This document shows, one piece after another, positions 39,001 through 64,000 of a stretch of 64,000 nt of DNA (positions are counted from its first letter, which is position 1; each line of letters starts with the position of its first letter). The position numbers were made by a program. Location of the stretch: positions 27,652,001 through 27,716,000 of the forward strand of contig OY740811.1 of NCBI GenBank assembly GCA_963514005.1, read 5' to 3'. This DNA is from Raja brachyura (taxonomy: Eukaryota).

Positions 39001-42000
39001 GTAGAAATAACAGGTCATTCATTCATCATATAGAATTGAAGTGAATTAATATATTGCACTTCTTTCATTTAATTGAAGTTTAAATCAGATACCTAAAATA
39101 TACATCTGAACAGATTTTCTTCTACGCAAGTAACATCATACAAAACCCATAAACCTGCCCCCCTGGGAAGTGAATATTGTTGGCTTTTACCATTATTTCC
39201 CTATGGAATGAGTTATGCTCAAACATTTCAACAGAAACAAGTTCTGAACCTGTGCACAAAGAAGGCAAACGCAATGCTGGCATTTATTTCCAGAGGGCTA
39301 GAATACAAAAACAGGGATTTAATGCTGAGGCTCCACAAGGTGCTGGTCAGGCTGGATTTGGAGTATTGTGATCAATTTTGGGCACCATATGTAAGGAGGG
39401 ATGAGCTGGCTCTGGAGAGAGTCCAGAGGAGGTTTACAAGAATTATCCCAGGAATGAGTGCGTTAAAATATGATGAACATTTGACGGCATTGGGCTTGTA
39501 CTCGCTGGAGTTTAGAAGAATGAGGGGGGACCTCATTAAAACCTGCTGAATAGTGAAAAGAGAATCTAGGACGAGAAGTCATACCTCAGAATTAAAGTAC
39601 GTTCCTTTAGGAAGGAGATGAGAAGGAATTTCTTTAGTCAGAGGGTGGTGAGTCTGTGGATTTTTTTGCCACAGAAGGCTGTGAAGGCCAACGGATATTT
39701 TTAAGGCAGTGAGAGATAGATTCTTGATGAGTAATGGTGTCAGGGGTTAAGGGGAGAAGGGATAGGAGGGAGAGATAGATCAGCCATGAGTAAATGGCAG
39801 AGTCGACATGCAGGGCCAAATGACCTACTTCTGCTCCGATCACTTAAGACCTTTTAACCTTATGCACAGAGCTCGGTTTCCGCTGAGTCATATGGAGTTG
39901 GCAGCGGAGTCCTGTGATTCCACATGACTATTCAGAACCGACAGTAGGGCAGAGGTGGCACAGTACTAAAATACAATTGATTAACTTTAATATTTTTAAT
40001 TCCTTCCAAACATTACTTCATTCACTAGAGGGCACCTTGGTCGGCATGGATGAATTGGGTAGAAAGGTCTGTTTACATGATTATAACTATGATAATTACT
40101 TTAATTTCAACAATATTTTCAATTGTGTCTCCATCAAAAATTAATTATAATTCAATTTTCATTGATAGCGGACCATTCATCAAGCACAAATGTCACGCCA
40201 AGAAGGGATTCAACATCAGAGAGCAACCAAACGACAGAACCATCATTAATATCCAAACCTTCAAAAGAAGGAAACTCAGAATCATCTCCAACAGCAGAAT
40301 CACCCACAAGAGGCAGCTCCACTCCACAAACAACTCCTAAAACCCAGCATTCATCACAAAACTCTACAAGCATAAATCTCAATTCGTCAAAAAATGTGTC
40401 TGTTTCAGAACCTCATTTCACGACACAATTATCAGTCATGACACATTCCTCATCGGAATCATATTCCACATCAACAGAACCTTCATCAGAATCACATCCT
40501 ACAATAGCAGCATCCACAATTGCCACATCCTCTCTGGAAACAACTCCAAAAACCCAGCAATCTTCAAGAACTGAACTATCAACACAATCCAATCCAAGCA
40601 CAACCAATGTTTCATCAGTCACCGAGTCCTCTTCAGAAACACATTTAACAACATCAAGTTTATCACAGGTAACTGAGTCCTCAACAGAAACATATTCCAC
40701 ATCGACACAGGTCACATCAAAAACTGAATCACCCTCAGAAAGCCATCAGACCACTGAAGTGCCTTCAAGCTCCTTGACCTCATCAAAAACACATCCAACA
40801 TCATCACTGGAATCATCATCAACGGAGCTTCCAACAACAGCATATCCAACATTGACAACTGCTTCATCTGTTAGTGTGTCCCCATCTGAAACCCACCTAA
40901 CAACAACACCACAATCATCACCAATTCAGTCCTCAGCAGAGACCTATCCAACAACACAAACATCCACAAACAAACCTTCATCAGAAACACATCCAACAAC
41001 AGTGGAATCGTCAAGCACACAGCATACAACACAAGCACATCAAAGCTCAACAGAAGTTTCATCAGTCACTGTGTCGCCAGTTGAATCCCACTCCACAACC
41101 TCATCATCTTCATTGGTTACTGAATCCCCGTCAGAAGCACATTCAACATCTGCACAAGCATCAGTGACAACTGAAACTTCATCGGAATCCCATCCAACTA
41201 CAGAGGCATCTCGAATCACAATGTCCTCTTCAGAAAGACAGCCAACAGCACATGAATCATCAAGTACAGAGCAGACAACACAAACTCATGGAACAACATC
41301 TGAAATTTCCTCAGAAAGTGCGTCCTCATCAAAATCCCTCGCAACAGCAACAACGTCACCTTTGGTCACTGAGAGCTCAACGGTAACTTATTCTCAATCA
41401 TCGCAAATCACATCCTCCAACAAATCTACAATAGTATCACATCCAACGACAGAAGAATCATCGATCACCGTCTCCTCACCTGAAGCACATCAGACAAATA
41501 CACAGGAACCATTTACATCGACATATCCAAAGACAACACAAGCTTCAACAGAAACTATTTTGACAACAGAAACACATTTAACAACACCAATCTCAAAGCA
41601 AACGGAGCCTCCATCAGTAACCTACCCACGCACAACAGAAGGCTTATCCACAACAGAATTTTCCTCACCAACACCGAATGATAGACAGGCATCAGCAACC
41701 ACATTGTCCACAGCTGAAACACGGTCAGAAACGCAGGAATCAATAAGAACGGAGCACTCAACACAAACCTTTGCAAGCACGACACAGATTTCTTCAGAAA
41801 GTGTGCCCGTTTCAGAACCACATTTCACAACGCAATTTTCAGCCACGATACATTCCTCATCGGAATCATATTCCACATCAGTAAAAGCTTCCTCAACAAC
41901 AGAACCTTCATCAGAATCACATCCTACAATAGCAGCATCCACAATTGCCACATCCTCTCTGGAAACAACTCCAAAAACCCAGCAATCTTCAAGAACTGAA

Positions 42001-63000: not shown

Positions 63001-64000
63001 CCACGCACAACAGAAGACTTATCCACAACAGAATTTTCCTCACCAACACCGAATGGTAGACAGGCATCAGCAACCACATTGTCCACAGCTGAAACACGGT
63101 CAGAAACGCAGGAATCAATAAGAACGGAGCATTCAACACAAACCTTTGCAAGCACGACACAGAATTCTTCAGAAAGTGTGCCCGTTTCAGAACCACATTT
63201 CACAACGCAATTTTCAGCCACGATACATTCCTCATCGGAATCATATTCCACATCAGTGAAAGCTTCCTCAACAACAGAACCTTCATCAGAATCACATCCT
63301 ACAATAGCAGCATCCACAATTGCCACATCCTCTCTGGAAACATCTCCAAACACCCAGCAATCTTCAAGGACTGAACTATCAACACAATCCAATCCAAGCA
63401 CAACCAATGTTTCATCAGTCACCGAGTCCTCTTCAGAAACACATTTAACAACATCAAGTTTATCACAGGTAACTGAGTCCTCAACAGAAACATATTCCAC
63501 ATCGACACAGGTCACATCAAAAACTGAATCACCCTCAGAAAGCCATCAGACCACTGAAGTGCCTTCAAGCTCCTTGACCTCATCAAAAACACATCCAACA
63601 ACATCACCGGAATCATCATCAACGGAGCTTCCAACAACAGCATATCCAACATTGACAACTGCTTCATCTGTTAGTGTGTCCCCATCTGAAACCCACCTAA
63701 CAACAACACCACTATCATCGCCAATTCAGTCCTCAGCAGAGACCTATCCAACAACACAAACATCCACAAACAAACCTTCATCAGAAACACATCCAACAAC
63801 AGTGGAATCATCAAGCACACAGCATACAACACAAGCACATCAAAGCTCAACTGAAGTTTCATCAGTCACTGCGTCGCCAGTTGAATCCCACTCCACAACC
63901 TCATCATCTTCATTGGTTACTGAATCCCCGTCAGAAACACATTCAACATCTGCACAAGCATCAGTGACAACTGAAACTTCATCGGAATCCCATCCAACTA

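What the first reader, a model, noticed from the sequence alone, without database searches (positions are those of the whole stretch)
40169..64000. Giant (>=23.8 kb) single coding exon: a mucin domain with an unusually long 475-aa tandem unit, invisible to the ORF track
Seen: one plus-strand frame stays open for >=7,900 codons and leaves the window, so the ORF caller reports only its antisense and off-frame shadows. It is about half Ser/Thr, Cys-free in the unit translated, and repeats at exactly 1425 bp about 16.6 times with no indels after the first unit. Established: one very large PTS exon directly after a signal-peptide exon is the layout of membrane-tethered mucins (MUC3/12/17, MUC4 type). 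Their repeat units are usually only tens of residues. Inference: this is a giant, probably poorly annotated chondrichthyan mucin with a macrosatellite-scale coding VNTR, possibly contributing to skin, gill or gut mucus or the glycocalyx.
Basis: partly seen in the sequence, partly recalled or inferred. Interest (0 to 1): 0.85.

Follow-up and report, generated by a model that had tools for sequence, protein, structure and literature searches.

The report
Giant repeated mucin-type coding exon
A single open reading frame of nearly 24 kb encodes a serine/threonine-rich, mucin-like protein stretch built from near-identical 475-residue blocks; it is a real but fairly ordinary kind of gene part with an unusually large repeat block.

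Summary
One plus-strand frame is open from 40105 to the window end: 7,965 codons with no stop. Default ORF listing shows only antisense ORFs there. A 1,425-bp unit repeats 16 full times plus two partial copies. Full units are 98.2-100% identical and have no indels.

A single unit is stop-free in one frame of six. None of 2,000 dinucleotide shuffles was stop-free. From the AG acceptor at 40167-68 the product is 50.5% Ser+Thr and 6.8% Pro. It has no Cys and no hydrophobic segment.

The 475-aa unit is a higher-order repeat of about 28 decayed 17-aa sub-repeats.

No homologue, Pfam domain or annotated protein was found.

The best reading is a mucin-type PTS exon of a gene absent from the protein collections searched.
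- a signal-peptide exon directly upstream;
- membrane tethering, because the 3' end lies outside the window;
- a chondrichthyan source.

Giant PTS exons and long super-repeats are already known in human mucins (PMC9578598, PMC13345508, PMC6780288, PMC6269512). I rate it a new member of a known kind, of moderate interest.

The parts
40105..63999 (+). Open reading frame, 7,965 codons with no stop; it leaves the window at its 3' end
   Evidence: in-frame TAA at 40102-40104
40167..40168 (+). Probable AG splice acceptor; the exon starts at 40169 in phase 1 (codon gcg at 40168-40170)
   Evidence: it is the only AG between 40065 and 40183, it follows a moderately pyrimidine-rich tract, and there is no in-frame ATG near the 5' end of the frame. 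The acceptor is inferred, not shown by RNA.
40169..40340 (+). Non-repeated start of the PTS domain, about 57 aa and already Ser/Thr-rich
   Evidence: 7-13 of 30 bases match the later copy at lag 1407, which is background level
40341..40471 (+). Diverged first partial copy of the unit's 3' part: 105 of 131 bases identical, lacking 18 bases (6 codons)
40465..63264 (+). 16 full 1,425-bp (475-codon) units in codon register. They are 98.2-100% identical and have no indels. Each unit is a higher-order block of about 28 decayed 17-aa sub-repeats, 21 of them recognisable, with consensus S-S-V-T-E-S-S-S-E-T-H-P-T-T-S-E-S.
63265..64000 (+). 17th unit, cut by the window end (736 bases, 2 differences from the unit consensus)
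17309..17411 (+). Weak candidate first exon: ATG, a hydrophobic stretch and a phase-1 donor CAG|GTAAAC, inside a CpG-rich sequence that is unique within the window. It is a candidate only and was not joined to the PTS exon.
17730..17796 (+). Second weak candidate first exon: ATG, a short Leu run and a phase-1 donor GAG|GTTTGT. It is a candidate only.

Best explanation
This is the 5' 23.8 kb of one giant coding exon that encodes a mucin-type (PTS) domain of a vertebrate mucin-like glycoprotein. The gene is not represented in the protein collections searched.

Shown:
- The frame is coding.
- The product is at least 7,943 aa. It is half Ser/Thr and acidic, with no Cys, no hydrophobic segment and no folded-domain signature.
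- It has two repeat levels. An old 17-aa (51-bp) repeat has decayed to about 54% nucleotide identity. A block of about 28 such repeats (1,425 bp, or 475 codons) was amplified recently to at least 16.6 copies that are 98-100% identical.

Inferred:
- The exon is spliced at 40169 to an upstream exon that supplies the start codon and a signal peptide.
- The polypeptide is densely O-glycosylated in the Golgi. It would form an extended bottle-brush of roughly 2 um at the textbook 0.25 nm per residue.
- The array grows, shrinks and homogenises by unequal crossing-over or gene conversion in register. Because 1,425 is a multiple of 3, any change in copy number keeps the frame. Protein length would then change in steps of 475 aa.
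- Selection keeps the frame open and the composition Ser/Thr-rich but does not constrain individual residues.

Whether the protein is membrane-tethered (MUC3/12/17 or MUC4 type) or secreted cannot be decided from this window. I lean towards tethered or orphan secreted rather than gel-forming.
For: Coding:
- One unit has 0 stops in one frame against 9-73 in the other five. Of 2,000 dinucleotide shuffles, 0 were stop-free (mean 11 stops). 283 of 475 codons are NCN.
- The whole frame has 7,965 codons without a stop.

Mucin-type composition:
- S+T is 50.5% and PTS is 57.3%. No 50-aa window falls below 36% S/T, and the longest stretch without S/T is 6 aa.
- There are 0 Cys and 14.7% order-promoting residues. 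The highest 19-residue hydropathy is 0.45.
- Pfam finds no domain in the first 573 aa.

Hierarchy:
- The S-E-[ST]-H-x-T-T type motif occurs 15 times per unit, against a mean of 0.8 and a maximum of 4 in 1,000 residue shuffles.
- 21 sub-repeats are spaced 15-17 aa apart, or at multiples of that, and cover 351 of 475 aa.
- Sub-repeats are 53.7% identical at nucleotide level, against 35% for random codon-aligned windows. Units are 99.27% identical.

Array dynamics:
- The 5' edge copy is 80% identical and units 1-3 are the most divergent. Units 6-10 alternate between two variant types, and units 12 and 13 are identical.
- 25 of 49 variant alleles are shared by two or more units.
- Greater degeneration at array edges is reported for about half of the human mucin VNTRs (PMC13345508, section 7).

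Gene layout:
- The domain starts abruptly at the AG acceptor. Upstream there is no S/T-rich ORF and no similarity to the unit.
- The frame has no in-frame ATG before about codon 110.
- In human MUC3A and MUC3B a single PTS-encoding exon 2 of 15.9 and 39.3 kb carries 17-aa repeats (PMC9578598, passages). [quoted passage not shown]
Against: - There is no transcript, peptide or glycan evidence.
- No signal-peptide exon was found convincingly in 40 kb upstream, so secretion is inferred only.
- The 3' end, and with it any defining mucin domain (SEA, TM, VWD, CK), is outside the window.
- Differences among units look neutral: 11 synonymous, 38 nonsynonymous and 0 stop, against about 14, 32.5 and 2.2 expected. 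The recent copies themselves give no evidence of purifying selection, and 0 stops against 2.2 expected is not significant.
- No homologue was found anywhere. Conservation therefore cannot be used as support.
- Pro at 6.8% is low for a classical PTS domain.
- PTS prediction alone is known to give false positives for proteins lacking VWD or SEA domains (PMC1552070, passage).
- Copy number rests on one assembly.
Confidence: 0.78

Rival explanations
1. It is specifically a membrane-tethered mucin of the MUC3/MUC12/MUC17 (SEA-type) or MUC4 type. On this reading a signal-peptide exon is followed by this giant exon 2, with SEA/EGF/TM or NIDO/AMOP/vWD/TM domains downstream.
For: - The PTS domain begins at the first codon after a phase-1 acceptor.
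- There are no domain-encoding exons in 40 kb upstream.
- S/T at 50.5% with low Pro resembles MUC3A, which has about 52% S/T (PMC13345508, section 7).
- The sub-repeat is 17 aa with one His and Glu a few residues before it. The human MUC3A/B repeat is also 17 aa with one His and one Glu (PMC9578598, passage). I compared these by eye only.
Against: - No SEA, EGF or TM domain can be seen, because the exon leaves the window.
- No convincing signal-peptide exon was found.
- The 17-aa resemblance is largely compositional and was not tested against a null.
- There were no sequence hits to any mucin.
Confidence: 0.4
2. It is the central exon of a gel-forming mucin (MUC2/5AC/5B/6/19 type), whose VWD-rich N-terminal exons lie further upstream.
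For: - Long and hierarchical units occur in this class: the 528-aa MUC5B super-repeats (PMC6780288, passage) and the 169-aa MUC6 units (PMC6269512, passages).
- Cartilaginous fish have Muc2, Muc5, Muc6 and Muc19 genes (PMC4948705, passages).
Against: - There are 0 Cys in 7,943 aa, so no CysD modules.
- None of 272 plus-strand ORFs of at least 40 aa in the 40 kb upstream hits VWD, C8 or TIL. There were two marginal, unrelated hits at E of 0.004-0.007.
- MUC6-type genes lack CysD, so this subtype is excluded only by the missing upstream exons. Very long introns could hide those.
Confidence: 0.08
3. It is a non-functional sequence: either a macrosatellite that happens to be open, or a recently dead mucin relic that is no longer transcribed.
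For: - Differences among units fit neutral expectation.
- There is no homologue and no expression data.
- No first exon was identified.
Against: - A stop-free unit did not occur in any of 2,000 shuffles.
- The old 17-aa sub-repeats have diverged to about 54% nucleotide and 36% amino-acid identity. Even so, they kept the frame, NCN codons (283 of 475) and S/T content, which needs long-term selection.
- There are no indels in 16 units.
- A very recent loss of expression cannot be excluded.
Confidence: 0.07
4. The unit and frame are real, but the copy number or order in this assembly is wrong because near-identical 1.4-kb units were expanded or collapsed.
For: - Units are 98.2-100% identical, two adjacent ones are identical and others differ by 1-3 bases. 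Such arrays are hard to assemble.
- Mucin VNTR exons were wrong or incomplete in earlier human references (PMC9578598 and PMC6269512, passages).
Against: - 25 of 49 variant alleles are shared by subsets of units in an ordered pattern, with an edge gradient and alternating types. Random read errors would not give this.
- There are no N and no frame breaks.
- It cannot be tested without reads.
Confidence: 0.15

Closest known systems
Human MUC3A/MUC3B (also MUC12, MUC17): SEA-type transmembrane mucins of the 7q22 cluster
   Same: - One giant PTS-encoding exon: MUC3A 15,873 bp, MUC3B 39,267 bp, MUC12 32,428 bp (PMC9578598, passages).
- S/T of about 52% in MUC3A (PMC13345508), against 50.5% here.
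- A 17-aa basic repeat containing one His and one Glu (PMC9578598), against the 17-aa sub-repeat here.
- Perfect inner repeats with imperfect flanking ones.
   Different: - Here the homogenised unit is a 475-aa block of decayed 17-mers, not the 17-mer itself.
- SEA, TM and the cytoplasmic tail are unseen.
- The signal exon is unverified.
- There is no detectable sequence homology.
Human MUC5B central exon, with four 528-aa super-repeats
   Same: Hierarchical repeat: short irregular repeats grouped into a super-repeat of about 500 aa inside one large exon (PMC6780288, passage citing Desseyn 1997).
   Different: - The MUC5B super-repeat includes a Cys-rich subdomain and a unique sequence, has only four copies and sits in a 10.7-kb exon.
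- Here the unit is purely PTS and Cys-free, with at least 16.6 copies at 98-100% identity.
- No VWD exons lie upstream.
Human MUC6 PTS exon (169-aa / 507-bp units x 24)
   Same: A long, purely PTS tandem unit in a single exon, with unit-number variation (PMC6269512, passages).
   Different: - The unit here is 2.8 times longer.
- Unit identity here is 98-100%, against at least 82% to the consensus in MUC6.
- Pro is 6.8% here against 13.7% in MUC6.
MUC16, a long tethered-mucin VNTR (the most degenerate in PMC13345508)
   Same: A tethered mucin with a very long repeat-bearing protein.
   Different: - As I recall, and not from any call, MUC16 repeats are about 156 aa and carry folded SEA modules.
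- Here Pfam finds no domain, and S/T occurs at least every 7th residue.
Lineage-specific 'orphan' mucins (Pajic et al. 2022, PMC9417175)
   Same: They are defined by function and composition (T/S-rich exonic repeats) rather than homology, and they evolve fast through repeat copy-number change. This fits the absence of any homologue here.
   Different: - Those described are small mammalian salivary or SCPP-locus proteins with short repeats.
- This one is at least 7,943 aa with a 475-aa unit.

Membership tests
Mucin (operational definition of Pajic et al. 2022, PMC9417175 methods passage) | More than 20% Thr+Ser | tested here: met
   50.5% S+T over 7,943 aa; at least 36% in every 50-aa window
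Mucin (operational definition of Pajic et al. 2022, PMC9417175 methods passage) | Tandem repeats within a coding exon, with P/T/S-rich sequence clustered in the repeats | tested here: met
   16.6 copies of a 475-codon unit in one open frame; PTS 57.3%
Mucin (operational definition of Pajic et al. 2022, PMC9417175 methods passage) | More than 4% predicted O-glycosylation sites | not testable with these tools
   No O-glycosylation predictor was on hand; only the S/T density is known
Mucin (operational definition of Pajic et al. 2022, PMC9417175 methods passage) | Signal peptide or secretion | tested here: inconclusive
   Heuristic scans of 40 kb upstream gave only weak candidates (17309-17411, 17730-17796). 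The nearby hydrophobic ORF has no phase-compatible donor. No SignalP and no RNA data were available.
SEA-type transmembrane mucin (MUC3/12/17, MUC1, MUC13) | SEA domain, a single TM helix and a cytoplasmic tail C-terminal of the PTS domain | not testable with these tools
   The frame leaves the window at 64000. There is no hydrophobic segment in the 7,943 aa seen.
SEA-type transmembrane mucin (MUC3/12/17, MUC1, MUC13) | PTS domain in one large exon directly after the signal-peptide exon | tested here: inconclusive
   A single giant exon with a phase-1 acceptor is met. The preceding signal exon was not identified.
MUC4-type transmembrane mucin | NIDO, AMOP and vWD domains after the PTS exon | not testable with these tools
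   These would lie outside the window
Gel-forming mucin (MUC2/5AC/5B/6/19) | N-terminal VWD-C8-TIL assemblies encoded by many exons upstream of the central exon | tested here: not met
   0 of 272 plus-strand ORFs of at least 40 aa in 1-40104 hit these families. This holds for the 40 kb in the window only.
Gel-forming mucin (MUC2/5AC/5B/6/19) | Cys-rich (CysD) modules interrupting the PTS domain (MUC2/5AC/5B/19 subtypes) | tested here: not met
   0 Cys in 7,943 aa
MUC16-type repeat | Each repeat unit contains a folded SEA module (recalled, not from a call) | tested here: not met
   No Pfam family in the first 573 aa, which include a full unit. The composition is incompatible with a fold.

The most novel reading that the evidence does not exclude
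A lineage-specific ('orphan') giant mucin whose PTS domain is a coding higher-order repeat. On this reading a 1.4-kb macrosatellite inside an exon is still being homogenised, and copy-number polymorphism changes the protein in steps of 475 aa (roughly 0.12 um of extended chain each). Array length could then be a heritable, selectable dial for glycocalyx or mucus thickness in this animal. It would be the longest purely PTS homogenised unit described for a mucin.
Probability: 0.3. Interest if true: 0.55.

Novelty: new member of a known kind. Interest (0 to 1): 0.4.

Why it matters
- It is a clean example of a two-level (higher-order) tandem repeat inside a coding exon. Old 17-aa repeats have been frozen into a 475-aa block, and that block was then amplified in frame. 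This shows how mucin domains can lengthen in large steps while keeping only frame and composition under selection.
- It shows that ORF tracks and gene predictors can miss a protein of at least 7,900 aa entirely.
- If the source is a cartilaginous fish, it would add a non-gel-forming mucin candidate to a group where my searches found papers only on gel-forming mucins and mucus glycans (PMC4948705, passages).
- Giant PTS exons, long super-repeats and edge-degenerate arrays are all established for human mucins, so the kind itself is not new.

Tried and rejected
Homology searches:
- phmmer of the first 573 aa against 1.84 billion representatives gave 1 hit (E 1.1e-4). It is a repeat protein unrelated in composition, which I read as fibronectin-III-like by eye, and I take it as chance.
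- Three word-indexed searches found nothing. They covered candidate lengths 315-1003, 1004-2865 and 4368-13901 aa. Lengths 2866-4367, below 315 and above 13901 aa were not covered.
- Pfam on the first 573 aa gave nothing.
- The ESM Atlas on one unit gave a best score of 0.80, to pneumovirus G mucin-like fragments. That is chance level by the tool's own calibration.
- Rfam at gathering threshold on the whole window gave 0 matches.

Upstream exons:
I then scanned stop-free ORFs singly: 272 plus-strand ORFs of at least 40 aa and 192 minus-strand ORFs of at least 45 aa.
- Only RVT_1 matched well (1 ORF, 5.3e-8). Four other families matched marginally, one ORF each, at E 0.002-0.007: DUF7155, BRCA2 OB2, LDLRAD1_C and CECR6/TMEM121. 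I take these as chance. Exons inside shorter ORFs would be missed.

Signal-peptide exon:
- Three heuristic scans found nothing convincing.
- The Met-initiated hydrophobic ORF at 40050-40127, in another frame, was rejected. None of its 5 GT sites is in the phase needed, two of them would leave an intron of only 42-44 bases, and similar hydrophobic ORFs occur 5 + 5 times in the 10 kb upstream.

Other checks:
- The CpG-rich 13.5-18 kb stretch is partly LINE fragments. The part from 16.6 to 18.5 kb is unique in the window but has no recognisable exon.
- There is no S/T-rich ORF upstream and no similarity of the unit to the upstream 40 kb.

Not done:
- No structure prediction or complex prediction was run, because composition already excludes a fold.
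Candidate first exons were never joined to the PTS exon, and every search used the PTS exon alone.
No orthologous locus or downstream sequence could be fetched, so taxon and synteny stayed unchecked.
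Full report
**1. Observation**

A stop-to-stop scan that also lists frames running off the window shows a single plus-strand frame open from 40105 to 63999. It has 7,965 codons and no stop. An in-frame TAA precedes it at 40102-40104. 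The window holds no N.

With default settings, which do not list ORFs that run off the window, the region shows only antisense ORFs. All 17 ORFs of at least 100 aa are on the minus strand. Sixteen of them are 172-aa ORFs spaced 1,425 bp apart.

Base composition changes sharply at about 40 kb. GC skew goes to about -0.43 and AT skew to about +0.30, and both stay constant to the window end.

**2. The repeat**

Short internal repeats recur every 1,425 bp. Exact lag-1,425 identity starts at 40472.

The array has these parts:
- 16 full units, taken codon-aligned as 40465-63264.
- A 736-bp 17th copy with 2 differences from the consensus.
- A diverged first partial copy at 40341-40471, identical at 105 of 131 bases and lacking 18 bases, or 6 codons.

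The 120 unit pairs differ at 0-25 of 1,425 positions, with mean identity 99.27% and no indels. Units 12 and 13 are identical.

**3. Is it coding?**

Because the copies are nearly identical, the independent evidence comes from one unit, not from 7,965 codons.
- A unit has 0 stops in the reading frame and 9-73 in the other five frames.
- Dinucleotide-preserving shuffles gave a mean of 11 stops, and 0 of 2,000 were stop-free.
- The composition-based probability is 2.5e-10.
- C fills 60% of second codon positions. 283 of 475 codons are NCN, which encode Ser, Pro, Thr and Ala.

The unit is also internally old. A motif of the type S-E-[S/T]-H-x-T-T occurs 15 times per unit, against a mean of 0.8 and a maximum of 4 in 1,000 residue shuffles. 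An iterated profile finds 21 sub-repeats of 17 aa. They are spaced 15-17 aa apart, or at multiples of that, and cover 351 of 475 residues. Their consensus is S-S-V-T-E-S-S-S-E-T-H-P-T-T-S-E-S.

These sub-repeats are only 53.7% identical at nucleotide level, against 35% for random codon-aligned windows, and 35.5% identical at protein level. Despite that decay they have kept frame and composition, which argues for long-term selection on an open, Ser/Thr-rich frame.

The recent differences among the 16 units look neutral. There are 49 variant alleles at 47 columns: 11 synonymous, 38 nonsynonymous and 0 stops. Random mutation at the observed transition/transversion ratio would give about 14, 32.5 and 2.2. 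Residue identity is therefore not constrained. Zero stops against 2.2 expected is not significant on its own.

**4. The product**

From codon 40171 the 7,943 residues have this composition:
- 26.7% Ser and 23.8% Thr, giving S+T of 50.5%, with 6.8% Pro.
- About 9% Glu and about 4% His.
- 762 acidic residues against 256 Lys+Arg.
- 0 Cys and 1 Trp.
- 53 N-x-S/T sequons.

No 50-aa window has less than 36% S/T, and the longest stretch without S/T is 6 residues. Order-promoting residues make up 14.7%, and the highest 19-residue hydropathy is 0.45. There is therefore no TM segment and no room for a folded module.

Pfam finds nothing in the first 573 aa. This is a mucin-type PTS domain by composition and architecture. 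At the textbook 0.25 nm per residue (my knowledge, not a call) the part seen would extend about 2 um.

**5. Gene structure**

The frame has no in-frame ATG before about codon 110. The only AG between 40065 and 40183 is at 40167-68, behind a moderately pyrimidine-rich tract. An exon start at 40169 in phase 1 is thus the simplest reading, but no RNA evidence shows it.

The PTS sequence begins at once after this point. Upstream there is no S/T-rich ORF and no similarity to the unit.

Three heuristic scans for ATG + hydrophobic stretch + phase-1 GT donor gave only weak candidates. The best by donor are 17309-17411 (CAG|GTAAAC) and 17730-17796. Both lie in a CpG-rich stretch whose 16.6-18.5 kb part is unique in the window.

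A Met-initiated hydrophobic ORF lies at 40050-40127, in another frame. None of its five GT sites is in the phase needed. Two of them would leave an intron of 42-44 bases. Similar hydrophobic ORFs occur 5 + 5 times in the 10 kb upstream. I take it as a chance product of AT-rich sequence.

Every search used the PTS exon alone.

**6. Surroundings**

The 40 kb upstream is CpG-depleted (observed/expected 0.2-0.4) and full of LINE debris.
- Many fragments share a CR1-like ORF2 C-terminal motif.
- One RVT_1 hit lies at 30909-31208 on the minus strand.
- An intact 334-aa ORF at 37697-38701 on the minus strand is placed by the Atlas with zf-RVT LINE proteins.

I scanned 272 plus-strand ORFs of at least 40 aa and 192 minus-strand ORFs of at least 45 aa singly against Pfam. 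Apart from RVT_1, four families matched marginally, one ORF each, at E 0.002-0.007. There was no VWD, C8, TIL, SEA or EGF domain.

I do not take the window for human. It has many relatively intact CR1-like fragments.

**7. Relatives**

- phmmer of the first 573 aa against 1.84 billion representatives gave one hit, E 1.1e-4. It is an unrelated repeat protein.
- Three word-indexed searches found nothing. They covered candidate lengths 315-1003, 1004-2865 and 4368-13901 aa. Other lengths were not covered.
- The Atlas gave only chance-level neighbours: viral mucin-like G fragments at 0.80.

The protein is thus absent from these collections. That fits both fast PTS evolution and an unannotated gene. 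Whether the source genome's annotation is in those collections at all is unknown.

**8. Array dynamics (inference)**

- The 5' edge copy is 80% identical, and units 1-3 are the most divergent full units.
- Inner units differ at a mean of 6.5 positions.
- 25 of 49 variant alleles are shared by two or more units.
- Units 6-10 alternate between two variant types, which points to duplication of two-unit blocks.
- Units 12-15 are nearly identical.

This is the signature of unequal crossing-over or gene conversion in register. Because 1,425 is 3 x 475, every such event preserves the frame.

Edge degeneration is reported for about half of the human mucin VNTRs (PMC13345508, section 7 read). The ordered variant pattern also argues against random read error. 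It cannot, however, exclude a wrong copy number in the assembly.

**9. Comparison with what is known**

I read passages found by term search, and section 7 of PMC13345508. Supplements were closed.

Giant single PTS exons are established:
- MUC3A exon 2 is 15,873 bp, MUC3B exon 2 is 39,267 bp (13,089 aa), and the MUC12 PTS exon is 32,428 bp (PMC9578598).
- MUC12 proteins range from 4,677 to 23,080 aa, and the longest MUC4 VNTR allele is 27,843 bp (PMC13345508).

S/T content of human mucins spans about 25-52%. Proline falls as S/T rises (PMC13345508), which fits 50.5% S/T with 6.8% Pro here.

Long units exist too:
- MUC6 has 169-aa units x 24 (PMC6269512).
- MUC5B has four super-repeats of 528 aa, but these include a Cys-rich part (PMC6780288).

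The human MUC3 basic repeat is 17 aa with one His and one Glu (PMC9578598), like the sub-repeat here. I compared them by eye only and treat this as a lead, not a test.

What stands out here is the homogenised unit: 475 aa, purely PTS, at least 16.6 copies, 98-100% identical. Searches for such a unit in print found nothing relevant. A search for transmembrane mucins in cartilaginous fish listed no paper holding those terms together (10 of 312 listed). The motif tables in the supplements and extended data of PMC13345508 could not be seen. They might show comparable higher-order periods, for example in MUC12.

**10. Verdict**

It is a real, coding, mucin-type PTS exon with a hierarchical repeat. 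The signal-peptide exon, the membrane tether and the taxon are not shown. The claim that the unit is unprecedented is softened by MUC5B and MUC6, and by the 17-aa sub-repeat inside the unit.

I file it as a new member of a known kind, with interest 0.4. Decisive data are the downstream sequence, transcripts across 40169, and long-read validation of the array.

Noticed in passing
window 37697-38701 (-): An intact 334-aa stop-free ORF. The ESM Atlas places it with zf-RVT (LINE ORF2 C-terminal) clusters at 0.97-0.98, while Pfam itself gave no hit. It is probably a fairly young LINE fragment just upstream of the mucin exon.
   Followed up: partly
window 6620-7275 (-), 12979-13652 (+), 16059-16540, 21778-22613 (-), 33433-33876 (-), 39097-39549 (+): Many fragments share one CR1-like LINE ORF2 C-terminal motif, some with open frames of 120-160 aa. 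There is also an RVT_1 hit at 30909-31208 (-). They suggest recent LINE activity and a non-mammalian vertebrate source. The taxon was not testable here.
   Followed up: partly
window 13500-18500: A CpG-rich stretch (observed/expected 0.55-0.83, GC up to 0.51) in an otherwise CpG-depleted window. The left part is LINE debris. The part from 16.6 to 18.5 kb is unique within the window and could be a promoter or first exon of this gene or another. No recognisable exon was found.
   Followed up: partly
window 37470-37546 (+): A 77-base A-rich run reported at period 1, with 71% matches. It lies in the most AT-rich part of the window (GC 0.28-0.29).
   Followed up: no
window 22876-23425 (+): A C/T-rich low-complexity stretch that reads as Pro/Ser/Leu-rich ORFs in all three plus frames. 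GC skew is -0.43 over 22-24 kb. It looks like simple sequence, not an exon.
   Followed up: no
window 13500-13737 and 24274-24511: A 238-bp direct duplicate at 95.8% identity. It is far better preserved than the other repeat copies in the window.
   Followed up: no
window 40050-40127 (+): A Met-initiated Ile/Thr-rich hydrophobic ORF sits directly before the mucin exon but in another frame. It has no phase-compatible donor. It might tempt a reader into calling a signal peptide.
   Followed up: yes
window 47590-54714 (units 6-10): Units alternate between two variant types, which implies duplication of two-unit (2,850-bp) blocks inside the array.
   Followed up: partly
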